Below, piece after piece: positions 3,541 to 52,089 of a DNA stretch of 64,000 nt; positions within the stretch are counted from its first letter, which is position 1, and every line of letters begins with the position of its first letter. The notes beneath the pieces are model-generated. The model made no database searches. It saw only the letters and a program-made list of their open reading frames with translations, and was not told the origin of the DNA. The DNA comes from a virus, in the IMG/VR virus record IMGVR_UViG_3300012277_000051, positions 4,041 through 68,040 of that record. One strand, given 5' to 3'. The translations under genes and the position numbers were made by a program.

Positions 3541-3732
3541 ATGTTTGAATTACGAAACTATATCATTAATGAATTTCCAGCAGCTTTTACAACACCATAC
3601 AGTAGAGAAATGCTAGATAATATTTTAGAAGAATCTGAAAAGATTGAAAGTATAAGCGCAAGGTGTGAATGGATAAGTATGATGATTCCAGAAATCAGAT
3701 TAAATGAAATAAGGGATATTTTATTACAATAA
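3541..3732 (+). CDS. hypothetical protein
   Basis: ORF track; RBS aaggcaagg. Confidence 0.4.
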   Translation: MFELRNYIINEFPAAFTTPYSREMLDNILEESEKIESISARCEWISMMIPEIRLNEIRDILLQ

Positions 3733-3766
3733 AAAGCACATTTTATTAATAAATAAGGAGGTAATC

Positions 3767-4003
3767 ATGGCGAACACGGTTAGAAACTATGAAAATACAT
3801 ACAGTTATGGAACTGCAACACATAAGACTAAAACAACTCAATTAAATAAGTACCGTAAAATCATAGGAAGCATTTTATTATTGCTTTCTATTTTTGTACT
3901 CTTTATGCTGCCAGACCAGGACGGAAACTGGACGCTGGCAGCATTGCTGATAATTGTAAGCGCAGTTTTATTTGCACAGACCGGAGGATTAAAACATGAA
4001 TAG
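3767..4003 (+). CDS. small membrane protein (two predicted TM helices)
   Basis: Hydrophobic stretches IIGSILLLLSIFVLFML and LAALLIIVSAVLF; RBS aaggagg. Confidence 0.5.
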   Translation: MANTVRNYENTYSYGTATHKTKTTQLNKYRKIIGSILLLLSIFVLFMLPDQDGNWTLAALLIIVSAVLFAQTGGLKHE

Positions 4004-4297
4004 CGATATAAAATTTCATTACATGAAAAACAAGGAAGGGAAAATTGAAATGTATGCAAATGGTATATACATATCTACATTTGATAACTTCACGGAAATT
4101 CTCGCCTTACATAGCCTTATATCTTAATACATAGCCTTGTCGGTAATCCGAAAGGATAGGCCGTGCTGCGAAAGTAAACAAGGCATTCCCGGCAGTCTAA
4201 AAGTGATTGCTGCTTACCACGGAGAATTAGTGGTCGATCTGGCTTAGGTCACTAACCGCACATAATTAGCGGTAGATTATTATAGGAGGTGTTTCGT
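4004..4297 (+). ncRNA. about 290-nt non-coding leader with direct repeats TACATAGCCTT x2 (about 4108 and 4128) and hairpins; candidate cis-regulatory RNA or operator region
   Basis: No credible ORF on either strand; repeats 20 bp apart; hairpins ttagtg...cactaa and accgc...gcggt immediately before the RBS of the 4298 gene. Confidence 0.3.
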
Positions 4298-4486
4298 ATG
4301 GGATATGGAGAATTAGAGCAATGTAAGGACTTTGACAAGCTGAAGGCAGTGTTTGATAATGATATGCTTGGATACTGTGAAAGGCAGCTAGAGGTGTATT
4401 TAAGCGGATCTGAGGAAAGGTCAGCGGTTGTTTGTTGGTGGGAAGGTATGATGAGCACTGATGATTTTATTGAGATGTGTAGTTAA
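4298..4486 (+). CDS. hypothetical protein
   Basis: ATG 7 nt after taggaggtg; the track's 4289 GTG start overlaps the RBS. Confidence 0.45.
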   Translation: MGYGELEQCKDFDKLKAVFDNDMLGYCERQLEVYLSGSEERSAVVCWWEGMMSTDDFIEMCS

Positions 4487-4509
4487 TAGATGAGGTATGG
4501 GAGGTTATT

Positions 4510-4746
4510 ATGTTAGAAATTACAAAGAAAAATTGGAAATATATTAAAGTAAAAGGAAAGTGTCCACGTTGTGGGAATAAGGTTGCAATTGGTAGTTGCG
4601 GGTTTTATGGAGAACCTGGATCATATGAATTTCTTCCAGTTTGCACCAACGAAGATTGTGAAGAAGCATATGGATATGGTGGGACAATTAAAATAAGATT
4701 CATAAATCATAGAACGGTAAAAATAGATGGATTGTGGGAAGCATAG
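4510..4746 (+). CDS. zinc-ribbon protein (CPRCG...C...C)
   Basis: ORF track; CxxC pair; RBS gggagg. Confidence 0.45.
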   Translation: MLEITKKNWKYIKVKGKCPRCGNKVAIGSCGFYGEPGSYEFLPVCTNEDCEEAYGYGGTIKIRFINHRTVKIDGLWEA

Positions 4747-5015
4747 AGGCAGAAAAACTTTTGCTCACGAGTGCTTTTATTGGAGTAAGGTATGGTAATG
4801 AGGAAATAGGGAAATATGTTGCTATGAAGTTTAATTGGATACTTACTTTATTGAAAGGAGAATATATGAACCCAATTGATATACCGTTAAAAGAGATACG
4901 CGAATGGTTTGTTTATGCTAAAGAGTATAAATGGATTGAAAATAAATATGATATCACTAGAGAACAGATTGAAGAATGTATTCAAAGGTACGTTGAAGAA
5001 GTAATGAGCAAATAG
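4734..5015 (+). CDS. hypothetical protein (start uncertain; an internal ATG at 4866 has a better RBS)
   Basis: ORF track. Confidence 0.3.
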   Translation: MGSIEAEKLLLTSAFIGVRYGNEEIGKYVAMKFNWILTLLKGEYMNPIDIPLKEIREWFVYAKEYKWIENKYDITREQIEECIQRYVEEVMSK

Positions 5016-5043
5016 AATGCTGATTTGAAAGGAGAGTTTAAAA

Positions 5044-5202
5044 ATGACGTTCAAAAAATGGTTTAAAAAAAAATATAACCCACAAAAAGATGATGATTAT
5101 TTATTGTATAAGTATGAGTTTGATTTACTTTATCTTTCATATGTTTCATATTGTAAAGAAAAAGGTATGATATATCAAAAAGAAAGTGAAGCCTTGATGT
5201 AA
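5044..5202 (+). CDS. small hypothetical protein (52 aa), not in the ORF track
   Basis: ATG 7 nt after aaaggagag; open to the TAA. Confidence 0.3.
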   Translation: MTFKKWFKKKYNPQKDDDYLLYKYEFDLLYLSYVSYCKEKGMIYQKESEALM

Positions 5203-5246
5203 AGAGCCAACAAAAGAGATATTTTAAGGAGGAGTGATTTTGATTA

Positions 5247-5435
5247 ATGTGTACATGGTGTGATGAGTTAAACGAAGAAAAAGAGAAGATAACAACGGAT
5301 ACAATCAAGCTTTCACGTTCTGGTTATTATAATTATCGAATTCCAATATATTGCTGTCCTGTCTGTGGTGATAAGCTAAAGAAATATGAGGGATATTCGT
5401 TAGAACAGTTATTGAATGGTTGCGCGCCACAATAG
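5247..5435 (+). CDS. zinc-ribbon protein (CxxC...CPVCG)
   Basis: ORF track; RBS aaggagg. Confidence 0.45.
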   Translation: MCTWCDELNEEKEKITTDTIKLSRSGYYNYRIPIYCCPVCGDKLKKYEGYSLEQLLNGCAPQ

Positions 5436-5509
5436 GTACATATATCCACAATTTCAAATTAGAAAGGAAGTGAATTTCCAAAAGAAGAATTTTTAAGAAT
5501 AATTGATAA

Positions 5510-5545
5510 AACCCAACTACCTTGATTTTGTAGTTGGGTTTTTAT
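5510..5545 (+). terminator. rho-independent terminator upstream of the integrase; a possible attP lies in the 5450-5620 non-coding stretch
   Basis: aacccaactac...gtagttgggtt stem then ttttta. Confidence 0.55.
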
Positions 5546-5623
5546 AGTATCAAATTAATTTAACGAAATTTATTAATAAAACAATCATTTATTGCAAGTA
5601 GGATTCTGAATGGAGGTAATATC

Positions 5624-6652
5624 ATGACATACCATGAACAAAACGATATCCAGAATATAAAGAAACTCAGATGTATTATATCCTCATTGCCAGATTATTG
5701 CGAAGACTTCTTTCGAGGGATTGAGCCGAGAACTTCTTCCAAGACAAGGATTGCTTATGCAACGGATCTGAAGTTGTTTTTCGATTATCTATTCAGAAGC
5801 GGTCAAGCTTCAGACATTGATTCAATCACTCTTGATATGCTATCAAGTTTGAAAATCATAGACTTTGAAAAATATATGGAGTGGCTAAAATGTTGGACTG
5901 ATAAATCTGGTAATGAAAACGTCAACGGAGAGAAAGCTATTGCAAGAAAGTTGTCTACTTTAAAAGCCTTCTACAAATATTTTCAGCAGAACGAAAGGAT
6001 AATTACTAATTCAGCATCACTTGTGCAGCCACCAAAATTGCACGACAAAGAGATTATACGACTTGATAGCGACGAAATGAAGGCATTTATTCAGGCGGTA
6101 GAAACCGGTGGGAGTTTAAATGGTAGAGAGCGAGCCTTCTTTGAAATAACACGGAAGCGTGACCTTGCAATAATTATATTACTACTTACTACTGGAATCA
6201 GGGTATCTGAATGTGTGGGGCTAGATATTGACAATGTGGACATAAAAAATAGCGGGATCAAAGTATTTCGTAAAGGTGGAAAGGAATCTACTGTTTATTT
6301 CAGTGATGATACCAAAGAAGTATTAGAGTCTTATATAGAAGAACGGAAACAGGTGGAATCAATCAAAGGGCATGAAAATGCTCTATTTTTATCTTCACAG
6401 AACAAACGGATTTCTACCAGAAGTGTAGAGGGCATAGTTCCAAAGTATGCAAAGTTGGCAGGAATCAAGAAGAACGTTACTCCTCATACGCTGCGTAGAA
6501 GCTATGGAACAGCTCTATATAACGCTACAGGAGACATTTATCTTGTGGCTGGTACTTTGGGTCATGCAGATATCAACACCGCAAAACGGCACTATGTAGT
6601 ACTGGAAGATGAGAGAAAAAGAGATAATAGGAATGCTGTTAAATTAAGATAA
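5624..6652 (+). CDS. int: tyrosine recombinase / phage integrase (XerC/D-like)
   Basis: C-terminal HTLRRSYGTALY...LGHADINTAKRHY (R-H-R-Y catalytic motif); N-terminal SAM-like core-binding domain. Confidence 0.9.
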   Translation: MTYHEQNDIQNIKKLRCIISSLPDYCEDFFRGIEPRTSSKTRIAYATDLKLFFDYLFRSGQASDIDSITLDMLSSLKIIDFEKYMEWLKCWTDKSGNENVNGEKAIARKLSTLKAFYKYFQQNERIITNSASLVQPPKLHDKEIIRLDSDEMKAFIQAVETGGSLNGRERAFFEITRKRDLAIIILLLTTGIRVSECVGLDIDNVDIKNSGIKVFRKGGKESTVYFSDDTKEVLESYIEERKQVESIKGHENALFLSSQNKRISTRSVEGIVPKYAKLAGIKKNVTPHTLRRSYGTALYNATGDIYLVAGTLGHADINTAKRHYVVLEDERKRDNRNAVKLR

Positions 6653-6687
6653 AAGACATGTTTAATTAGAAGGGAGAAATAATAGTA

Positions 6688-6825
6688 TGAACAAGAATAA
6701 TCAGCCGGTGTTAAATCCCGGAGACAAGATAATTTATAATGAAAACGATCCGCATGTATGGTATGATAATATAAAAGAAGCACTTGAAAACGCAGGACTT
6801 ACATTGTCAAAGGAGGTAGCATAGT
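6688..6825 (+). CDS. small hypothetical protein (45 aa), not in the ORF track
   Basis: ATG after aagggagaaataatagt; plus-strand, non-overlapping. Confidence 0.3.
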
Positions 6826-7069
6826 GGCAGGACTTATTGTTATTATTTTAATCTTTGCATATTACAAATATGCAACCCGAAGGCCGAAATATGGAACACA
6901 AGAATATCTTGATTGGAAATATAAAGATATGCCAGGAGATAAGGAATATTGGAAAGCAATAGAAAAAAAGAATATGGGCTGCACATACGGTGATATTCCA
7001 ATGACTCCATCTGAAAAGGCAGCTTATAATAAAGTGGAAAAAGAAAATGGAAGATCTGGAATTGAATAA
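6824..7069 (+). CDS. small membrane-anchored protein
   Basis: GTG start after aaggaggtagcata; N-terminal TM helix. Confidence 0.4.
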   Translation: MAGLIVIILIFAYYKYATRRPKYGTQEYLDWKYKDMPGDKEYWKAIEKKNMGCTYGDIPMTPSEKAAYNKVEKENGRSGIE

Positions 7070-7080
7070 CTTTTGAACAG

Positions 7081-14870: not shown

Positions 14871-14943
14871 AAATAAATAAAGAAAACTGTTGACACGGTG
14901 AGAAATAAGTGATATAGTTACGTCAGAAGGAAATAAAGAAAAC
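14871..14943 (+). promoter_or_regulatory. motif-flanked promoter: AAATAAATAAAGAAAAC, then TTGACA-N17-TATAGT, then a second AAATAAAGAAAAC at the predicted transcript 5' end
   Basis: -35 at about 14890-14895, -10 at about 14913-14918; motif copies at 14871-14887 and 14931-14943. Confidence 0.6.
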
Positions 14944-14981: not shown

Positions 14982-15533
14982 GTGTCAATAGTAAAAGTGA
15001 TTGGAAATAATGTGTGTTTATTAAATAATGATAGGGTGGTTCACAGCAGGAGTATTGCGGAAACTATATATTGTGGAGAGGTGAGATATGCATATCTTCC
15101 AAAGATGCCTACTGTTGAGGGATTAAAGTTTCATATTCAAGAGAAGGCAAGACCTGTTTTGATCGTATCAAACAATGCTAATAATAGGGCTGCTAACGGA
15201 AACGTCCAGATTATTCCGTTTACATCAAAAGATAAGACCAGTTTACCAACTCATTTATCATTCAATGCAGGAGAATTTGGGCTTGCAGAGGATTCAATTT
15301 TGATGGCTGAGTGTGAGACGCAGATTCCAGCAACGTTTGTTTTTGAAAAAATTGGTGAAGTAAATGATAATAAAATCATTGAAGATATCGTCCAAACGAT
15401 AATTATTCAGCATGGGTTGTTTGCAAAACTTATGAAAAAGAGATATAATAAGTCGAATGTGAACCGATCAGTGTCTGATTATAAGGTTATCGAAGGGAGA
15501 AAACATAATGACTTCGAAAGAAATATTGGATAA
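14982..15533 (+). CDS. MazF/PemK-like endoribonuclease-fold protein with an extra C-terminal region
   Basis: RPVLIVSNNANNRAANGNVQIIPFTSK...LPTHLSF matches the PemK/MazF core; GTG start after aaggagg. Confidence 0.5.
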   Translation: MSIVKVIGNNVCLLNNDRVVHSRSIAETIYCGEVRYAYLPKMPTVEGLKFHIQEKARPVLIVSNNANNRAANGNVQIIPFTSKDKTSLPTHLSFNAGEFGLAEDSILMAECETQIPATFVFEKIGEVNDNKIIEDIVQTIIIQHGLFAKLMKKRYNKSNVNRSVSDYKVIEGRKHNDFERNIG

Positions 15534-16514: not shown

Positions 16515-16531
16515 AAATAAATAAAGAAAAC
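16515..16531 (+). promoter_or_regulatory. 5'UTR copy of the AAATAAATAAAGAAAAC motif just upstream of the RBS of the 16549 gene
   Basis: Exact 17-mer, preceded by a hairpin at about 16476-16502. Confidence 0.5.
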
Positions 16532-29855: not shown

Positions 29856-31115
29856 ATGTTAATACAAAGAGTAGAGCAGCAAGTTATAAGGAAATCTCAT
29901 CCAAAATACAAAATAATTGATGAGATGTGTTTCAGATCAAAAGATTTATATAACTATGCAAATTACATTATTCGTCAAGAGTTTATTTGCAAAGGTAATT
30001 ACATTGGCTATTACGATATGAACAAGGAACTCAAAACACATCAGCAATACAAGGACTGCATGAGCCAACCGGCAAATTGTATCCTGAGAAATTTAGACAA
30101 AGCATGGAAATCGTATTTTGCAGCCATTAAAGATTGGAAGAAAAATCCTGGAAAATATCTCGGCATGCCAAAGTTACCCAAATATCTCCATAAAGATGGC
30201 AGATATCCTTGGATGATTCCTAATAACAGTTGCTTCTACAATGATAATGGAACGATACGCTTTAAGATATCTCGTCTTCAGGGTTATATATGGAAATCAC
30301 AATGTTTTGGCAGATTAATTCAAATACGATTCATTCCAAAAGGTTCCTGTTACGTAATGGAAATAGTATATGAAATTGAAGTGTCAGACGAAAAAGAAAC
30401 AGAATCTAAACGAATTGCTTCTATAGATATTGGTGTAGACAATCTTGTAACTATGACAAATAATATCGGCGAACAGCCAATTATTATTAACGGCAAGGGA
30501 ATCAAAAGTATTAACCAATTCTATAATAAGCAGATTGGAAAAGAGAAAAGTTTATTAAAAATCAGACATAATAAAGATTGGAGTAAGAAACTTGATAATA
30601 TTTCATTCAAGAGAAACCAAAAGATTAAAAATTACATGCACAATGCAAGCACATATATTATAAGATGGTGTTTGGAAAATAATATTGATACTTTGGTTGT
30701 AGGTCATAATAAAGAATGGAAACAAGGATCTTCTATGAATAAGAAAAGTAACCAGAAGTTTATAATGATTCCGTTTAATATGTTGTTATGGCATCTTGAA
30801 TACAAGTGCCAGAATGTGGGAATCAAATTCATTCTTACAGAAGAAAGTTATACTTCTGGAACCAGTTTTCTTGATGGAGAAGATCCGGTCAAAAAGAATT
30901 ATGATAAATCAAGAAGAGTTCAGAGAGGATTATTTAAAAGTAATTCTGGAAGATTAATCAATTCAGATGTAAATGGTTCATTGCAGATTATGAAGAAAGT
31001 ATTTCCAAATGCATTTAATGAGTGCTATGGAATAGAGGGTGTTCTAGCCCCTATGGTTATAAGTGTTGCGAAAGTAGCACGATTTACTATAAATGCAATT
31101 GAAAAATTGCAATAG
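29856..31115 (+). CDS. TnpB-like (IS200/IS605 OrfB family) protein, apparently lacking the RuvC-II glutamate and all zinc-finger cysteines; candidate nuclease-dead TldR-like regulator
   Basis: ASIDIGVDNLVT (RuvC-I Asp present); LVVGHNKEW where VEDLN is expected; TSGTSFLDG...GLFKSNSG where CxxC...CxxC is expected; SDVNGSLQI (RuvC-III-like). No adjacent TnpA. Confidence 0.75.
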   Translation: MLIQRVEQQVIRKSHPKYKIIDEMCFRSKDLYNYANYIIRQEFICKGNYIGYYDMNKELKTHQQYKDCMSQPANCILRNLDKAWKSYFAAIKDWKKNPGKYLGMPKLPKYLHKDGRYPWMIPNNSCFYNDNGTIRFKISRLQGYIWKSQCFGRLIQIRFIPKGSCYVMEIVYEIEVSDEKETESKRIASIDIGVDNLVTMTNNIGEQPIIINGKGIKSINQFYNKQIGKEKSLLKIRHNKDWSKKLDNISFKRNQKIKNYMHNASTYIIRWCLENNIDTLVVGHNKEWKQGSSMNKKSNQKFIMIPFNMLLWHLEYKCQNVGIKFILTEESYTSGTSFLDGEDPVKKNYDKSRRVQRGLFKSNSGRLINSDVNGSLQIMKKVFPNAFNECYGIEGVLAPMVISVAKVARFTINAIEKLQ

Positions 31116-31232: not shown

Positions 31233-31346
31233 ATGAAGGGAAAGAAAACAGAATTTGCATGGTTCAAAAGTATTATGAGTAAGGTGAAGAAGAACAAGCC
31301 AGAGATCGCAGCCAATGGAAAGGTTAAATGGGGAGCTGGTAAGTAG
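31233..31346 (+). CDS. small basic hypothetical protein (37 aa)
   Basis: ATG after aaaaggagaaataagca; first ORF downstream of the motif promoter. Confidence 0.25.
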   Translation: MKGKKTEFAWFKSIMSKVKKNKPEIAANGKVKWGAGK

Positions 31347-48335: not shown

Positions 48336-48406
48336 AAATAAAGAAAACCATTGACAGGAGATTGTTATGGTGATATTATTAATTCATAGTAATAAATAAA
48401 GAAAAC
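48336..48406 (+). promoter_or_regulatory. motif-flanked promoter for the tRNA: AAATAAAGAAAAC, then TTGACA-N17-TATTAT, then AATAAATAAAGAAAAC
   Basis: -35 at about 48351-48356, -10 at about 48374-48379; motif copies at 48336-48348 and 48391-48406. Confidence 0.55.
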
Positions 48407-48432
48407 TGAAAGTGCATTAAGTTGTACTTTCT

Positions 48433-48504
48433 AGCGGTATAGTGAACAGGTTATCACGCTGAGCTTTGACCTCAGAGAAGATGGTTCGATACCATCTACC
48501 GCTG
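48433..48504 (+). tRNA. tRNA-Gln (anticodon UUG)
   Basis: Manual cloverleaf: acceptor stem agcggta/taccgct (7 bp), D-stem gtga/tcac, anticodon stem ctgag/ctcag with loop cTTTGac, T-arm gatgg-TTCGAta-ccatc, discriminator G; no encoded CCA. Confidence 0.8.
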
Positions 48505-48533
48505 TTACTAAATATAGAAGAAAGGGGATTTCG

Positions 48534-48857
48534 ATGAAATATAAAAAATCAGAATTAACAAAGTTTGCAAAGTTAGCAGCCTATGTAAATACTTCGCTGT
48601 TAAATGCCATATGTGATGCTGAATGGATCGACGGTGGCGTTGGAAATTATATTCTTCATGGAATTGCAGATGACGAAGAACCAGAAGTCCAAGAGATAGT
48701 TTGCGAAGTGGCAAAACGATTTGCGAAATACACGAAAGACTATATGTTAGCCGAACCTCAATTGAACGCCAGAACGCTAATCGATGCAGAAGATATCTTA
48801 AGAAAAATAGTTGATTGTTGCGTAGAAAATAATTGGTTCAGGAAGGAGGATTATTAA
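48534..48857 (+). CDS. hypothetical protein
   Basis: ORF track; RBS aaaggggatttcg. Confidence 0.45.
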   Translation: MKYKKSELTKFAKLAAYVNTSLLNAICDAEWIDGGVGNYILHGIADDEEPEVQEIVCEVAKRFAKYTKDYMLAEPQLNARTLIDAEDILRKIVDCCVENNWFRKEDY

Positions 48858-49030
48858 TGATTTGTGCTTTATATGGCAGCACCCATATTGAAATGGTGAA
48901 TCACTTTGAACAAGGTAAGGTTACAAGATACGGACAGTGTAAAGATTGTTATGGGAAGACTGGTGAAAAGAAAATTACATATGGTGAAGTTTTAAAGAGG
49001 GTTGAACAAGAAAGATTTGAATGCAAGTAA
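48857..49030 (+). CDS. small hypothetical protein
   Basis: ATG after ggaaggaggattatta. Confidence 0.35.
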   Translation: MICALYGSTHIEMVNHFEQGKVTRYGQCKDCYGKTGEKKITYGEVLKRVEQERFECK

Positions 49031-49067
49031 TCTGTGGTTTTATTAGAAAATTGAAAAGGAGAGATTT

Positions 49068-50153
49068 ATGGGAAGAAAATTAGCAAGTATCAAGGTTGTT
49101 TCAGAGATGATGCCTATTGATGGAAGAGATAAAATCATGCTTGGTATGGTTGATGGTTGGCAGGTAATTATAAATAAAGATCAGATTAAACAGGGAGATA
49201 AAGTTGTTTACTGTGAGATTGATTCAGTGCTCCCAGAAACAGAACAGTTTGAGTTTTTGAGAAGTAAGAAATTCAGAATCAAGACAATGAAAATGGCCGG
49301 TGTTATCAGTCAGGGTATTTGCTTCCCATTAAGTATTTTACCTCCTGGTAATTATGAGGTTGGAGATGATGTAACGGAAATCCTCGGTGTTAAACAGTAT
49401 GAAGAGACTATGGATAATGACAGGGAAGTAGAAAATGAATTTGCAAATACAGTAAAGAAATATCCGCGGTTTCTAATGAAGCAGAAGTGGTTCAGAAATT
49501 TGGTATTACCAAAGAAGCAAAATAAAGGATTTCCTTCTTTTATTAGTAAGACTGACGAAACTAGAATTCAAAATGCTCCGTTCTATTTGAAGAATAAAAC
49601 ACCATTCGTTGCTACTGAAAAGGTTGATGGGCAGAGTGGAAGCTTCTGTCTGGTAAGGCATAAGAGCAGGATTCCTTTTAAGAAAGATAGATTTGAATAC
49701 ATAGTATGCAGTCGGAATTTGAGACTTTGGAAAAAGGATAGCTCTTCTTATTGGTCTGTATCGGATAGATATGATATTGAAAATGTGTTGAGAAATCTTA
49801 TTGGCAATAAATCTTGGGTAGCCATTCAGGGCGAATGTGTCGCAAGCAATGTCCAAGGAAATAAATATAAGGTTGATAAGCCAGATTTCTACGGATTCAA
49901 TCTGATCTATCCAGAGGGGCGCGTTGACTCAGAAACAGCAGAAATTATCCTTAATAAAGAAGGATTAAAGTTTGTACCTGTAATTGATGCCAACTATATT
50001 ATGCCTGACTCGGTGAAAGAATTATTGGAGTATGCTCATGGAGAAAGCAAATTGTACCCTACCCTGAGAGAGGGTATTGTATTCAGAAGCAAAGATGGTA
50101 AGCAGAGTTTCAAGGCAGTTGATCCGTTGTTTTTGCTGAAACACGATGAGTAA
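49068..50153 (+). CDS. ATP-dependent RNA ligase (DraRnl/Rnl5-like, N-terminal OB domain plus nucleotidyltransferase)
   Basis: KVDGQSGSF (KxDG lysine-adenylation motif I) downstream of an N-terminal OB-like domain. Confidence 0.6.
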   Translation: MGRKLASIKVVSEMMPIDGRDKIMLGMVDGWQVIINKDQIKQGDKVVYCEIDSVLPETEQFEFLRSKKFRIKTMKMAGVISQGICFPLSILPPGNYEVGDDVTEILGVKQYEETMDNDREVENEFANTVKKYPRFLMKQKWFRNLVLPKKQNKGFPSFISKTDETRIQNAPFYLKNKTPFVATEKVDGQSGSFCLVRHKSRIPFKKDRFEYIVCSRNLRLWKKDSSSYWSVSDRYDIENVLRNLIGNKSWVAIQGECVASNVQGNKYKVDKPDFYGFNLIYPEGRVDSETAEIILNKEGLKFVPVIDANYIMPDSVKELLEYAHGESKLYPTLREGIVFRSKDGKQSFKAVDPLFLLKHDE

Positions 50154-50170
50154 TTTGAAAGGATATAATA

Positions 50171-50353
50171 TTGGAAATTACATACCGTAAAAGTGATGGT
50201 ATATATGACTGTTACTTAACAGATCAGGAATCCGAATTTCATTCCAAAGCCGACATTTTTACAACCAAAGCGGTATTTATGCAAAGAATGGAAGAATACT
50301 TTGATTCGGCAATGATGACATGTGTGGAGAAACAATTAAGCGAAAGGAGATAA
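50171..50353 (+). CDS. hypothetical protein
   Basis: ORF track. Confidence 0.35.
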   Translation: MEITYRKSDGIYDCYLTDQESEFHSKADIFTTKAVFMQRMEEYFDSAMMTCVEKQLSERR

Positions 50354-50357
50354 ATGC

Positions 50358-50828
50358 TTGCAATTAAGAGAGTATTTAACAAGTAATAAAATAACTATTG
50401 ATCATGATTTTAGTTCAACTACATATGGAAATCTGGAAAATGTATTGGGTAAAGAGGTGTGGATTTGTGATTACCGATGTGGTGAAGATATATTCAAGAA
50501 ACCAATTAGAAGTATTCCGCCGATAAAAGTAAAAGTATTTAATGCGGAAACGGCTCGAAAGAATATTTATTATTCACCAATTTACTTTAAAGAAATTAAA
50601 GGCGATAAAATTTTGAGTTCTGAAATTGCTCCATGTGACAATACGGGTTATCGTGGACGATCTGGAATAAGTGTTAATATATTTGAATCCGAGTCGGAGT
50701 GTCAGAGGTGTTATGGGAATCAGCTAATGAAAGCAAAAGAGCAATATGATAAGGAATTTTTAAATATCAAGTGTTTGTACGATGAAAAGATTTCTTGGAT
50801 TTTGGGACAGATTAAAGGAGGGAAATAA
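50358..50828 (+). CDS. Cys-rich hypothetical protein
   Basis: ORF track. Confidence 0.4.
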   Translation: MQLREYLTSNKITIDHDFSSTTYGNLENVLGKEVWICDYRCGEDIFKKPIRSIPPIKVKVFNAETARKNIYYSPIYFKEIKGDKILSSEIAPCDNTGYRGRSGISVNIFESESECQRCYGNQLMKAKEQYDKEFLNIKCLYDEKISWILGQIKGGK

Positions 50829-51055
50829 TGCAATGGGATAGCGACACAACCGATGAGGATATCTTGAAAGAATTTATGTCTCATTTCCCTTACGATTATA
50901 AGAATGTTGAACAGCGTAAATTTGTTTTTGATAGCTTGATGTTTAAAAGGCATTTATTAGCTGTGAGATGGCAAATTTTGAAAGACTCTATTATAGAAGA
51001 TATTGAAAAGAAAAGACGCATGATATATGAGGTCTTTAGGAGGATTATTGGATAA
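50828..51055 (+). CDS. hypothetical protein
   Basis: ORF track; RBS aaaggaggg. Confidence 0.35.
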   Translation: MQWDSDTTDEDILKEFMSHFPYDYKNVEQRKFVFDSLMFKRHLLAVRWQILKDSIIEDIEKKRRMIYEVFRRIIG

Positions 51056-51695
51056 ATATTTAAGTATTATAACAAACTTCGGCTGCCACGGTAGATGTCC
51101 GTATTGTGTAGTCAGAGAGAATGGAATCAATGTTCCTGAAACAACATTGTTTGGGCTTAGTAATTTGAAAAATGCTGTAGAAGAAACGAGAGCCAATATC
51201 ATATCTGTTTCAGGTGGTGGAGATCCACTACATAATTACAAAGAGCATAAATACTGGTATACAGAATTATTTGCAATGGTAAATAATATGGGGCTGCCGC
51301 TTGAAATGCACACCAGTTATTTAAACTCAAAATTTCCATACGAGAAATGCAAGAGAGTAGTTTACCATTTACTGACGCTTGACCAGTTAGATGAAATTAC
51401 AAAACTTGAAAAAGAAATCGTCAGAGTGGTTTATGTCGTTGAAAAGTGGATGACAAAAGACCATATTGAATACATCTATGATTATGTGCAGAGAAGCCGT
51501 GATATTGACGAATTGAGTTTCCGCCAGTTGGTAAATGGTAACTTTGAAGAAGAATATCATTTGCACGATTATCTGAAGCGGTATCACGGAAAGAAATGGC
51601 ATTACATAGAACAATGTGATTATAACGATTATTATGTTGAAGAGAAACTGTATAAGAAATTTTCGGATATAGGGAAGGAGGGTGTTAGTGTATAG
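51027..51695 (+). CDS. radical SAM domain protein
   Basis: CHGRCPYC (CxxxCxxC cluster motif) near the N-terminus and ISVSGGGDPL glycine-rich SAM motif. Confidence 0.55.
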   Translation: MRSLGGLLDKYLSIITNFGCHGRCPYCVVRENGINVPETTLFGLSNLKNAVEETRANIISVSGGGDPLHNYKEHKYWYTELFAMVNNMGLPLEMHTSYLNSKFPYEKCKRVVYHLLTLDQLDEITKLEKEIVRVVYVVEKWMTKDHIEYIYDYVQRSRDIDELSFRQLVNGNFEEEYHLHDYLKRYHGKKWHYIEQCDYNDYYVEEKLYKKFSDIGKEGVSV

Positions 51696-52089
51696 TTCAA
51701 ATTCCGAGAGCATATTTGATAAAGAATTGTTTATCGACTTTGACGAGAGTAAACGTGAATTCTTAATATATCTCATAGATCATAAGAAAAAAGTATTTGT
51801 TCCTTATATCCATCAGTATGCAATTGGATTATACGATTTTATCATGAAAAAACGTAAACAGTTTGATATTACTGCTATTGGATTATATGGCATTAGAGGT
51901 GGGATGCACTGGCTGTATGATGAACTTATTTTGTCAGGATATGTTATCTATGATAGGTCAGATATTTATGAATGGAGAATGAATTTGGATCAAAGAGTTA
52001 GGATTGTAACAAGACCTATGTATTATTACGAAGCAAAAGGATACCAACCAATGTCAGAAAAGGAGTATTTAACAGGTATAAAATGCTAG
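51682..52089 (+). CDS. hypothetical protein (GTG start)
   Basis: ORF track; RBS ggaaggagg. Confidence 0.4.
   Translation: MLVYSSNSESIFDKELFIDFDESKREFLIYLIDHKKKVFVPYIHQYAIGLYDFIMKKRKQFDITAIGLYGIRGGMHWLYDELILSGYVIYDRSDIYEWRMNLDQRVRIVTRPMYYYEAKGYQPMSEKEYLTGIKC

What the first reader, a model, noticed from the sequence alone, without database searches (positions are those of the whole stretch)
48336..50153. Dedicated promoter, tRNA-Gln(UUG) and DraRnl-type RNA ligase; possible tRNA-repair or anticodon-nuclease counter-defence
A clean cloverleaf tRNA-Gln with a UUG anticodon is transcribed from its own motif-flanked consensus promoter. Two small genes later there is an ATP-dependent RNA ligase with the KxDG motif and an N-terminal OB domain. 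Phage tRNAs plus RNA ligases classically counter host anticodon nucleases (PrrC, RloC, colicin-like). The window also encodes a MazF/PemK-like endoribonuclease at 14982. No polynucleotide kinase-phosphatase was seen in the window.
Basis: partly seen in the sequence, partly recalled or inferred. Interest (0 to 1): 0.55.

Follow-up and report, generated by a model that had tools for sequence, protein, structure and literature searches.

The report
Phage tRNA-Gln plus Rnl5 RNA ligase
A gut-Clostridia phage carries a real glutamine tRNA and a DraRnl/NgrRnl-type RNA ligase in one probable operon; the ligase family looks like the sealing step of phage RNA repair, but here its partner enzymes are missing and the tRNA is inherited separately.

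Summary
The tRNA-Gln(UUG) is real. It lies downstream of a near-consensus sigma-70 promoter bracketed by two copies of a 13-nt motif. Two small ORFs follow, then a full-length Rnl5-family (DraRnl/NgrRnl) ATP-dependent RNA ligase with all catalytic residues. A PemK-like gene sits at 14982. No kinase or phosphatase was found in the 64 kb.

For it: in dereplicated IMG/VR samples, 46% of Rnl5 loci have Pnk(-HD), metallophosphoesterase or RlaP within 5 kb, against about 3% in two control sets. tRNA genes lie within 5 kb in 22%, against 3-4%. So Rnl5 is probably the sealing enzyme of a phage RNA-repair pathway, likely acting on tRNA.

Against it:
- No healing enzyme is detectable in this window.
- Characterised Rnl5 enzymes seal nicked duplexes and are feeble on single strands.
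- The tRNA and the ligase are separable. The closest relative keeps promoter and tRNA without the ligase. None of 42 close ligase relatives (39-73% identity) has a tRNA-Gln nearby.
- The promoter is not dedicated to the tRNA. It is one of three identical units, and no terminator precedes the ligase.

This is a new member of known kinds, of moderate interest.

The parts
48336..48348 (+). Upstream copy of the 13-nt motif AAATAAAGAAAAC, ending 2 nt before the -35 hexamer
   Evidence: Exact match. There are 8 exact + strand copies in the window against 0.76 expected. It is conserved in L054.
48351..48379 (+). Sigma-70-type promoter TTGACA-17 nt-TATTAT with a TG extension; inferred transcription start near 48386
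   Evidence: 11 of 12 consensus positions. The architecture is identical at 14874 and 31141. It is conserved in L054. Function is inferred, not shown.
48394..48406 (+). Downstream copy of the motif, at about +7 to +20 of the inferred transcript
48408..48431 (+). 9-bp leader hairpin abutting the 5' end of the tRNA
   Evidence: Present in the minimum-free-energy fold of 48386-48535 (z -3.5). In L054 a G.U pair becomes A-U, which preserves the stem.
48433..48504 (+). tRNA-Gln, anticodon UUG, no encoded CCA
   Evidence: ARAGORN. Rfam 59.4 bits. The tRNA body is 72/72 identical in L054, where the flanks are about 85% identical.
48534..48857 (+). g107, a 107-aa ORF of unknown function with an RBS
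   Evidence: No Pfam, PHROG or NCBIfam hit. No homologue in L054, where a different ORF lies downstream of the tRNA.
48857..49030 (+). g57, a 57-aa Cys-containing ORF; its start overlaps the g107 stop (TAATG)
   Evidence: It has an 83% identical homologue next to the tRNA in L054.
49068..50153 (+). Rnl5-family ATP-dependent RNA ligase: N-terminal OB domain (residues 5-88), a clade-specific linker (about 117-154), and an NTase domain with R166, K185, E256, E335 and K349

Best explanation
The region is the head of a polycistronic unit in a large phage of gut Clostridia. The nearest host clue is Oscillospirales. Relatives are 100-116 kb.

Transcription and tRNA maturation (inferred). A near-consensus host-type promoter is one of at least three identical motif-bracketed units in the window. 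It starts a transcript that contains a leader hairpin, the tRNA-Gln(UUG), two small ORFs, the Rnl5 ligase and further genes. Host RNases presumably cut the tRNA out of this transcript. The host CCA-adding enzyme must complete it, because CCA is not encoded.

Ligase chemistry (inferred from homology). The ligase would adenylylate K185, transfer AMP to a 5'-PO4 end and join that end to an RNA 3'-OH.

Ligase role (inferred from gene neighbourhoods). Its most likely role is the sealing step of RNA break repair, probably of tRNA. Across phage contigs, Rnl5 genes sit next to a 5'-kinase (with or without an HD phosphoesterase), a metallophosphoesterase and the RlaP nucleotidyltransferase far more often than control genes do. 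They also sit near tRNA genes more often than controls.

This phage. Those healing genes are absent from the 64 kb. The ligase therefore either reseals breaks that already carry 3'-OH/5'-PO4 ends, such as nicks in RNA stems made by metal-dependent nucleases, or it depends on host or unseen healing enzymes.

The tRNA. It is a separately inherited module under purifying selection. It supplies tRNA-Gln for CAA/CAG decoding when the host pool is limiting or under attack. It is not an obligate partner of the ligase.
For: Identity of the parts: tRNA; promoter and motif; Rnl5 architecture; invariant R166, K185, D187, G188, E256, R334, E335, K349.

Operon: no terminator between 48505 and 49068, and the g107/g57 stop and start overlap.

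RNA-repair context in close orthologues (about 70% identity): RlaP, Pnk-HD, MPE and Rnl5 are packed with 1-12 nt spacers in L004. The same layout occurs in L003, L008, L009, L037 and L039. A rearranged version occurs in L029-31.

Family-wide statistics after dereplication:
- Healing genes within 5 kb of Rnl5: 31 of 68 clusters. Controls: 2 of 48 (NrdD-anchored) and 1 of 68 (ThyX-anchored). Pooled Fisher p = 4e-13.
- tRNA genes within 5 kb: 15 of 68. Controls: 2 of 48 and 2 of 68. Pooled p = 2e-4.

Microbacterium phage Cece has a tRNA array ending 0.5 kb upstream of its Rnl5, plus an RtcB. phiM12 has an MPE and an RlaP-like gene nearby.

Independence of tRNA and ligase: L054 keeps motif, promoter, motif, hairpin and tRNA (72/72 identical) but lacks the ligase block. 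The 42 close ligase relatives lack a tRNA-Gln nearby.

Literature: Rnl5 biochemistry (PMC4408790, PMC1807946, PMC7261155); RlaP as an RNA-ligase-associated repair nucleotidyltransferase acting on broken tRNA (PMC12776372).
Against: - No Pnk, HD, MPE, RlaP, 2H or RtcA/B gene was found in the 64 kb by Pfam, tblastn or custom HMMs. The pathway as seen is incomplete.
- Characterised Rnl5 enzymes prefer nicked duplexes and are feeble on single-stranded RNA (PMC4408790). The only physiological data point to DNA 'ribo-patch' repair in Deinococcus (PMC5397189).
- In this window and about 10 relatives the ligase lies beside DnaE, RecD2 and LigA.
- The control loci come from different phage populations than the Rnl5 loci. 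The enrichment is therefore not a within-genome test.
- The protein scores below NCBIfam's equivalog cut-off for DRB0094 (121.7 against 151.15 bits).
- CAA is not over-used (235 CAA, 271 CAG), so simple codon compensation is not evident.
- Nothing here is experimental.
Confidence: 0.5

Rival explanations
1. The tRNA-Gln(UUG) and the ligase form one coordinated counter-defence against a host anticodon nuclease that targets tRNA-Gln. The phage replaces the cleaved tRNA and religates it.
For: - The two genes are probably co-transcribed.
- tRNA genes are enriched near Rnl5 genes in phages.
- L120/L121 carry tRNA-Gln(CUG), tRNA-Gln(UUG), RlaP, Rnl5 and Pnk-HD within 9 kb.
- tRNA-Gln(UUG) is a preferred substrate of Cas13a collateral cleavage (PMC11042736).
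- Phage tRNAs can evade tRNA-targeting defences (PMC10264068).
Against: - L054 keeps the tRNA without the ligase.
- No close ligase relative keeps a tRNA-Gln.
- The tRNA species found near Rnl5 elsewhere are varied: Met, Thr, Arg, Gly, Pro, Lys, Tyr, Leu and others.
- HEPN and PrrC-type cuts leave 2',3'-cyclic-PO4/5'-OH ends, which need healing enzymes that are absent here.
- Rnl5 is weak on single-strand substrates (PMC4408790).
Confidence: 0.15
2. The ligase is an accessory of the phage DNA replication and repair module. It seals nicks whose 3' end is ribonucleotide, as proposed for DraRnl. The tRNA is an unrelated translational helper.
For: - The gene order RecJ, DnaE, RecD2, LigA, (tRNA, two ORFs), Rnl5 is seen here.
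- DnaE-RecD2-Rnl5 are directly adjacent in L011, L012, L014-L016 and L038; L013 is cut off just upstream of its Rnl5 gene.
- The DraRnl knockout delays genome reassembly after irradiation (PMC5397189).
- No RNA-healing genes were found in the window.
Against: - Only 11 of 80 Rnl5 loci have replication homologues within 5 kb, whereas 38 of 80 have healing or RlaP genes.
- Orthologues of about 70% identity lie in RlaP/Pnk-HD/MPE operons.
- Replication adjacency may only reflect the general clustering of nucleic-acid genes.
Confidence: 0.2
3. The ligase services the phage's own RNA transactions. For example, it could reverse damage from the phage-encoded PemK/MazF-like RNase, or join processed phage RNAs.
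For: A PemK_toxin-domain protein (14982-15533) lies under the same class of motif-bracketed promoter.
Against: - MazF products carry 2',3'-cyclic-PO4/5'-OH ends, which Rnl5 cannot join without healing enzymes (established family knowledge).
- The two genes are 34 kb apart.
- No co-occurrence was tested or seen in relatives.
Confidence: 0.05

Closest known systems
Rnl5 family: Deinococcus radiodurans DraRnl and Naegleria gruberi NgrRnl
   Same: It has an N-terminal OB domain fused to an NTase domain and no C-terminal module. It aligns over its full length to NgrRnl (E 6.6e-39). The counterparts of NgrRnl R149, K170, E227, E312 and K326 are present as R166, K185, E256, E335 and K349.
   Different: It is phage-encoded. 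It has an extra linker of about 38 aa (residues 117-154) that is shared by the gut-Clostridia phage clade and absent from NgrRnl and from the GenBank phages Mic1, phiM12 and Cece. It scores below the NCBIfam equivalog cut-off. Its activity is untested.
Phage T4 tRNA repair (Pnkp plus Rnl1 countering the PrrC anticodon nuclease)
   Same: A phage-encoded ATP-dependent RNA ligase that may restore broken host RNA. Relatives pair it with a 5'-kinase and phosphoesterases.
   Different: The ligase is Rnl5, a nick sealer, not Rnl1, a stem-loop sealer. No Pnkp homologue was found in this window. No anticodon nuclease is known for the host.
RlaP-associated RNA-repair operons (Burroughs and Aravind 2016, as cited in PMC12776372)
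   Same: Orthologues of this ligase lie in RlaP, Pnk-HD, MPE, Rnl5 operons (L004, L008, L037, L039).
   Different: This window has the ligase alone. RlaP, kinase and phosphoesterase were not detected.
Phage-encoded tRNAs (codon compensation; evasion of tRNA-targeting defences, PMC10264068; tRNA-dependent lysogeny, PMC10865867)
   Same: A single, well-formed, strongly promoted phage tRNA under purifying selection (72/72 identical in L054 against about 85% in the flanks).
   Different: No host tRNA was available for comparison, so anticodon-loop escape changes could not be assessed. CAA is not over-represented.

Membership tests
tRNA (Rfam RF00005) | Cloverleaf scoring above the gathering threshold, with a defined anticodon | tested here: met
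   59.4 bits against 29. ARAGORN calls tRNA-Gln with anticodon UUG.
Rnl5 (DraRnl/NgrRnl) RNA ligases | Signature N-terminal OB domain | tested here: met
   PF21189 E 3.3e-26, residues 5-88. The segment aligns to NgrRnl residues 5-128.
Rnl5 (DraRnl/NgrRnl) RNA ligases | NTase domain with the motif I lysine (KxDG) and the motif III, IV and V residues | tested here: met
   PF09414 E 2.9e-18. K185-V-D-G, E256, E335, K349 and R166 are invariant in 11 homologues.
Rnl5 (DraRnl/NgrRnl) RNA ligases | No C-terminal specificity domain after motif V | tested here: met
   The protein ends 12 residues after K349.
Rnl5 (DraRnl/NgrRnl) RNA ligases | NCBIfam TIGR02306 (RNA_lig_DRB0094) equivalog cut-off | tested here: not met
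   121.7 bits against a cut-off of 151.15. It is a divergent member, not an equivalog by that rule.
Rnl5 (DraRnl/NgrRnl) RNA ligases | Mn-dependent sealing of 3'-OH/5'-PO4 nicks whose 3'-OH strand is RNA | not testable with these tools
   Needs a biochemical assay (PMC4408790 describes the reference assay).
T4-type tRNA healing-and-sealing system | Polynucleotide 5'-kinase / 3'-phosphatase encoded by the phage | tested here: not met
   No AAA_33/Pnk, HD, Metallophos or 2H hit in 64 kb. The rest of the genome was not available.
T4-type tRNA healing-and-sealing system | Rnl1-type ligase specialised for anticodon-loop breaks | tested here: not met
   The ligase is Rnl5 (PHROG 968, PF21189 plus PF09414), not Rnl1.
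RlaP/Pnk/MPE/ligase RNA-repair operon | The ligase is adjacent to RlaP, a kinase and a phosphoesterase | tested here: not met
   Not met in the window. Met in the orthologous loci L003, L004, L008, L009, L037 and L039, and rearranged in L029-31.
Sigma-70 promoter | -35 and -10 hexamers with 16-18 nt spacing | tested here: met
   TTGACA-17-TATTAT, 11 of 12, with a TG extension. Activity was not tested.
MazF/PemK toxin (the gene at 14982) | PemK_toxin domain above the Pfam gathering score | tested here: met
   37.6 bits against 23.1, E 2.8e-9, residues about 51-132 of 183. No NCBIfam hit.

The most novel reading that the evidence does not exclude
Rnl5 ligases have no charted physiological role. 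They may be the sealing enzymes of a widespread phage tRNA-repair pathway (RlaP, Pnk/HD, MPE, Rnl5) that co-localises with phage tRNA genes. This phage may run a stripped-down, two-pronged version from one strong promoter. It would supply a fresh tRNA-Gln(UUG) and reseal nicked tRNA stems, to survive tRNA-cleaving defences of gut Clostridia such as metal-dependent tRNases or Cas13-type collateral cleavage of U-rich anticodons.
Probability: 0.15. Interest if true: 0.65.

Novelty: new member of a known kind. Interest (0 to 1): 0.38.

Why it matters
Published work states that the physiological role of the widely distributed Rnl5 ligase family is uncharted (PMC5397189).

This locus adds little on its own. 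It contains a known ligase family and an ordinary phage tRNA.

Following it outwards gave a concrete, testable lead. In phage contigs, Rnl5 genes are strongly linked to end-healing enzymes, to RlaP and, less strongly, to tRNA genes. That points to RNA repair, probably of tRNA, rather than DNA repair as the family's role in phages.

The 'orphan' ligase in this phage, compared with the full cassettes in relatives of about 70% identity, offers a natural comparison for experiments.

Tried and rejected
- Megablast of 46-52 kb against GenBank phages found no match. blastn of the tRNA against GenBank phages also found no match.
- A dedicated tRNA promoter is rejected. The same motif-promoter-motif unit precedes a PemK-like gene at 14982, and a third unit lies just downstream of the TnpB gene (29856-31115), ahead of a small ORF at 31234. 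No terminator follows the tRNA.
- Hidden healing enzymes among the neighbouring small ORFs (g107, g57, g60, g156, g75, the 222-aa radical-SAM-like ORF, g135): no Pfam, PHROG or NCBIfam kinase or phosphoesterase hit. I saw no P-loop or 2H motif by eye. None of these ORFs recurs next to Rnl5 elsewhere.
- I tried to extend the genome beyond the window. Downstream there is only 1.85 kb more, carrying a lysin and a second integrase. Upstream, the only contig sharing the GGDEF gene has different neighbours. The rest of the genome could not be searched for a kinase or phosphatase.
- The tRNA as an attP remnant is rejected. It is full length, has a promoter, and lies 43 kb from the integrase.
- Stop-codon recoding is rejected. 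The anticodon is a normal UUG, and long ORFs are intact under table 11.
- Codon compensation could not be tested because no host is known. CAA is not over-used in the phage.
- Burroughs and Aravind 2016 (PMC5062991) is not held. I could not check whether they had already described the Rnl5/RlaP/Pnk/MPE association.
Full report
**1. What is in the sequence**

ARAGORN finds exactly one tRNA in the 64-kb window, tRNA-Gln with anticodon UUG at 48432-48505. Rfam's tRNA model scores it at 59.4 bits against a gathering score of 29 (E 2.5e-10) at 48433-48504. That register gives a 7-bp acceptor stem (A1-U72), U8 and discriminator G73. The next bases are TTACT, so CCA is not encoded.

Upstream lies TTGACA-17 nt-TATTAT with a TG extension (48351-48379). 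It matches 11 of 12 consensus positions, tied for the best score in 46-52 kb and the only 11/12 site on the coding strand. The total number of promoter-like sites there is no higher than in shuffles.

The promoter is bracketed by two direct copies of AAATAAAGAAAAC, at 48336 and 48394. This 13-mer occurs 8 times exactly, always on the + strand, against 0.76 expected. At 14875/14931 and 31142/31201 it brackets two further promoters with identical -35 and extended -10 elements. Two single copies sit just upstream of ribosome-binding sites, at 16519 and 16907.

A 9-bp hairpin (48408-48431) abuts the 5' end of the tRNA.

Downstream come three ORFs, each with a good ribosome-binding site: g107 (48534-48857), g57 (48857-49030, whose start overlaps the g107 stop) and a 361-aa ORF (49068-50153). 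No convincing terminator separates the tRNA from them. The promoter is therefore best read as an operon promoter of a recurrent class, not as a dedicated tRNA promoter.

**2. The ligase**

The 361-aa protein matches Pfam PF21189 (PHA02142 OB fold, E 3e-26, residues 5-88) and PF09414 (RNA_ligase, E 3e-18, residues 179-351). It also matches PHROG 968 'RNA ligase' (E 2e-65).

It aligns end to end with the crystallised Naegleria gruberi RNA ligase (5cot, E 6.6e-39). Allowing for the one-residue offset of the PDB chain, NgrRnl R149, K170, E227, E312 and K326 correspond to R166, K185 (K-V-D-G), E256, E335 and K349. In NgrRnl, alanine substitution of R149, K170, E227 or K326 is ligase-defective (PMC7261155).

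All five residues are invariant in an alignment of 11 phage homologues that are 33-70% identical to the window protein.

Two qualifications apply. The protein falls below NCBIfam's equivalog cut-off for DRB0094 (121.7 against 151.15 bits). The gut-phage clade also carries an extra linker of about 38 residues between the two domains.

**3. The rest of the window**

Pfam scans of all 106 + strand ORFs show an early, replication and nucleotide-metabolism region:
- GGDEF cyclase, peptide deformylase, tyrosine recombinase, GmrSD-like protein, ParB-like proteins and an XRE regulator.
- Amidoligase, a C5 methylase, LemA, PcfJ, a TnpB (29856-31115) and a Band-7 protein.
- RecJ-like, DnaE, RecD2-like and NAD-dependent LigA immediately upstream of the finding.
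- A guanylate-kinase-like protein, a D12 methylase, NrdD and its activase, and dUTPase.

No polynucleotide kinase, HD, metallophosphoesterase, 2H, RtcA/B or RlaP protein was found. tblastn with those proteins from relatives found nothing. HMMs built from them found nothing in any stop-to-stop ORF of the window.

The rest of the genome could not be reached.

**4. Close relatives**

Thirty IMG/VR loci and twelve loci from Clostridia genomes or MAGs encode ligases 39-73% identical to this one. One of them is an isolate contig of Ruthenibacterium lactatiformans 585-1 (L038). It carries a DnaE-RecD2-Rnl5-ThyX-NrdD block nearly identical to IMG/VR loci L011-16, which points to Oscillospirales hosts.

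None of the 42 loci has a tRNA-Gln within 6-8 kb. 36 have no tRNA at all, and six have other tRNAs.

The gene neighbourhoods fall into groups:
- In L011, L012, L014-L016 and L038 the ligase directly follows DnaE-RecD2, and L013 is truncated at that point. The LigA, tRNA, g107 and g57 segment is therefore a lineage-specific insertion in the window.
- In L003, L004, L008, L009, L037 and L039 (partial in L010 and L036) the ligase, about 70% identical to the window's, is the last gene of a tightly packed set.

The packed set consists of four genes:
- An RlaP nucleotidyltransferase (PF10127, above the gathering score).
- A kinase-HD fusion. Its AAA_33 domain best matches bacterial Pnkp and PHROG 'polynucleotide kinase', and it also has an HD domain.
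- A metallophosphoesterase.
- The Rnl5 ligase.

In L004 these lie at 3719-4501, 4505-5407, 5419-5997 and 5998-7077. In L029-31, where the ligase is 39% identical, a 163-aa kinase and the phosphoesterase lie 1-4 kb downstream.

Kinase, phosphoesterases, RlaP and ligase together make the healing-and-sealing layout of RNA-repair systems. RlaP was named for its association with RNA ligases. It adds nucleotides to broken tRNA 3' ends in vitro (PMC12776372).

**5. The family at large, with controls**

A profile-based scan returned the best 80 IMG/VR Rnl5 loci, each with 5 kb on either side. After dereplication these form 68 clusters:
- 31 (46%) contain a Pnk(-HD), MPE or RlaP homologue.
- 15 (22%) contain at least one tRNA gene.

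A common layout is Rnl5-Pnk-MPE, for example L096.

| Anchor gene | Clusters | With healing genes | With tRNA genes |
|---|---|---|---|
| Rnl5 | 68 | 31 | 15 |
| NrdD (control) | 48 | 2 | 2 |
| ThyX (control) | 68 | 1 | 2 |

Pooled Fisher tests give p = 4e-13 for healing genes and p = 2e-4 for tRNA genes.

One of the two tRNA-positive ThyX control clusters also contains an Rnl5 and an MPE. L120/L121 carry tRNA-Gln(CUG), tRNA-Gln(UUG), RlaP, Rnl5 and Pnk-HD within 9 kb. Replication homologues lie near Rnl5 in only 11 of the 80 loci.

Among eight GenBank phages inspected:
- Microbacterium phage Cece has a tRNA array ending 0.5 kb upstream of its Rnl5, and an RtcB downstream.
- phiM12 has an MPE and an nrdC.11/RlaP-like gene nearby.
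- A T4-like Aeromonas phage has Rnl1 and pseT within 5 kb.
- The other five show nothing obvious.

Caveat: the control loci come from different phage populations, so this is not a within-genome test.

**6. The tRNA is a separate module**

A 23-nt exact search with the anticodon arm found one IMG/VR contig (114 kb, L054). Its LigA is 85% identical to the window's, which makes it the closest relative found.

L054 has the same motif, promoter, motif, hairpin and tRNA arrangement. The tRNA body is 72/72 identical, while the flanks are about 85% identical. The discriminator is A instead of G. One hairpin G.U pair becomes A-U. The g57 homologue follows the tRNA.

The block from the ligase to g135 (window 49068-52089) is replaced by unrelated ORFs in L054. 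That contig did not appear in either ligase scan.

So the tRNA is under purifying selection and travels with the promoter and LigA. The ligase is variable cargo.

Codon counts give CAA 235 and CAG 271, although AAA and GAA dominate their synonymous pairs. Simple codon compensation is therefore not evident, but the host is unknown.

**7. Mechanism and rivals**

Shown:
- The identities of the tRNA and of the ligase family.
- Conservation of the catalytic residues.
- The promoter consensus and the recurrent motif.
- The absence of recognisable healing genes in 64 kb.
- The neighbourhood statistics.

Inferred:
- Co-transcription of the tRNA and the ligase.
- Ligase chemistry: lysine adenylylation, AMP transfer to a 5'-PO4, then attack by an RNA 3'-OH.
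- Its role in the phage.

I favour (0.5) the reading that the ligase is the sealing enzyme of an RNA-repair route, probably for tRNA. In this phage that route lacks its own healing enzymes. It is therefore limited to 3'-OH/5'-PO4 breaks, for instance nicks in RNA stems, which fit the duplex-nick preference of Rnl5 (PMC4408790), or it depends on host enzymes. On this reading the tRNA is an independent auxiliary gene.

Rivals:
It is weakened by L054, by the missing healing genes and by Rnl5 substrate preference. It is kept alive by the tRNA enrichment and by known tRNA-Gln(UUG) cleavage by Cas13a (PMC11042736).
- A replication and repair accessory that seals ribonucleotide-terminated nicks, as proposed for DraRnl (PMC5397189), beside LigA and DnaE (0.2).
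- Servicing of phage RNA, for example after PemK-like cleavage (0.05).

**8. Verdict**

The locus is a new member of known kinds: a phage tRNA and a phage Rnl5 ligase, which 337 GenBank phage records also encode.

Its main value is the lead it gave. Phage Rnl5 genes are statistically tied to end-healing enzymes, to RlaP and to tRNA genes. That makes the uncharted physiology of Rnl5 directly testable.

Noticed in passing
window 14875, 14931, 16519, 16907, 31142, 31201, 48336, 48394 (+ strand); 22673 with 1 mismatch: The 13-nt motif AAATAAAGAAAAC has 8 exact copies, all on the coding strand. Six of them bracket three near-identical consensus promoters, 56-59 nt apart. Two stand alone just upstream of ribosome-binding sites. 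The motif is specific to this phage and L054. It could be an operator for a phage regulator or an RNA-level element.
   Followed up: partly
window 48408-48431; L054 about 5058-5081: A 9-bp hairpin directly abuts the tRNA 5' end. It is conserved in L054 with a stem-preserving G.U to A-U change. It may be a processing or attenuation element.
   Followed up: partly
window 48432-48505 and L054 5082-5154: ARAGORN and Rfam place the tRNA ends 1 nt apart (U.G-extended stem against A1-U72/G73). The discriminator is G in the window and A in L054, while the 72-nt body is identical.
   Followed up: partly
L004 3719-7077; L008 2409-7080; L037 5149-9080; L039 140-3522; L096 5001-7306; L120 53-8720: RlaP, Pnk-HD, metallophosphoesterase and Rnl5 form RNA-repair cassettes in related gut and rumen phage contigs. 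L008 and L009 also have a Sir2-family gene between the MPE and the ligase. Healing genes occur near 46% of Rnl5 loci, against about 3% of control loci.
   Followed up: yes
window 29856-31115: A TnpB-like protein (OrfB_IS605 plus the Cas12f-like TNB domain) is encoded inside the phage early region, immediately upstream of one of the motif-bracketed promoters.
   Followed up: no
window 14982-15533: The PemK/MazF-like domain protein is 183 aa, with extensions of about 50 aa at both ends. It sits directly downstream of a motif-bracketed promoter. No obvious antitoxin was identified.
   Followed up: no
window 1-64000; L048 10693-12722; L049: The 64 kb contain no virion genes. They do contain two tyrosine recombinases (the second just beyond the window end), ParB-like proteins, PcfJ, GGDEF, peptide deformylase, GmrSD-like, LemA and Band-7 genes. 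A different contig shares the GGDEF gene next to ParM-like and TrwB-like genes. The element might be a phage-plasmid rather than a plain lytic phage.
   Followed up: partly
window 49068-50153, residues about 117-154: A clade-specific linker insertion of about 38 aa (conserved KYP...LMR..WFRKLV) lies between the OB and NTase domains. It is absent from NgrRnl and from the GenBank phages Mic1, phiM12 and Cece.
   Followed up: no
window 51027-51695: A 222-aa radical-SAM-like protein (CxxxCxxC, GGGDP) belongs to PHROG 17662 of unknown function. It lies in the same variable cargo block as the ligase and is absent from L054.
   Followed up: no
L114 1465-1538; L135 2300-2383: Related phage contigs carry tRNAs with a CUA anticodon (called tRNA-Pyl by ARAGORN). 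These are amber-suppressor-like and hint at TAG recoding in some relatives.
   Followed up: no
L038 (Ruthenibacterium lactatiformans 585-1, NZ_JXXK01000002.1, 236278-253360): A cultured isolate's 267-kb contig carries a DnaE-RecD2-Rnl5-ThyX-NrdD block about 100% identical to IMG/VR loci L011-16. This gives a tractable host and phage pair for testing Rnl5 function.
   Followed up: partly
window, all + strand ORFs: CAG (271) slightly exceeds CAA (235), even though the genome is 34% GC and AAA and GAA dominate their synonymous pairs.
   Followed up: no
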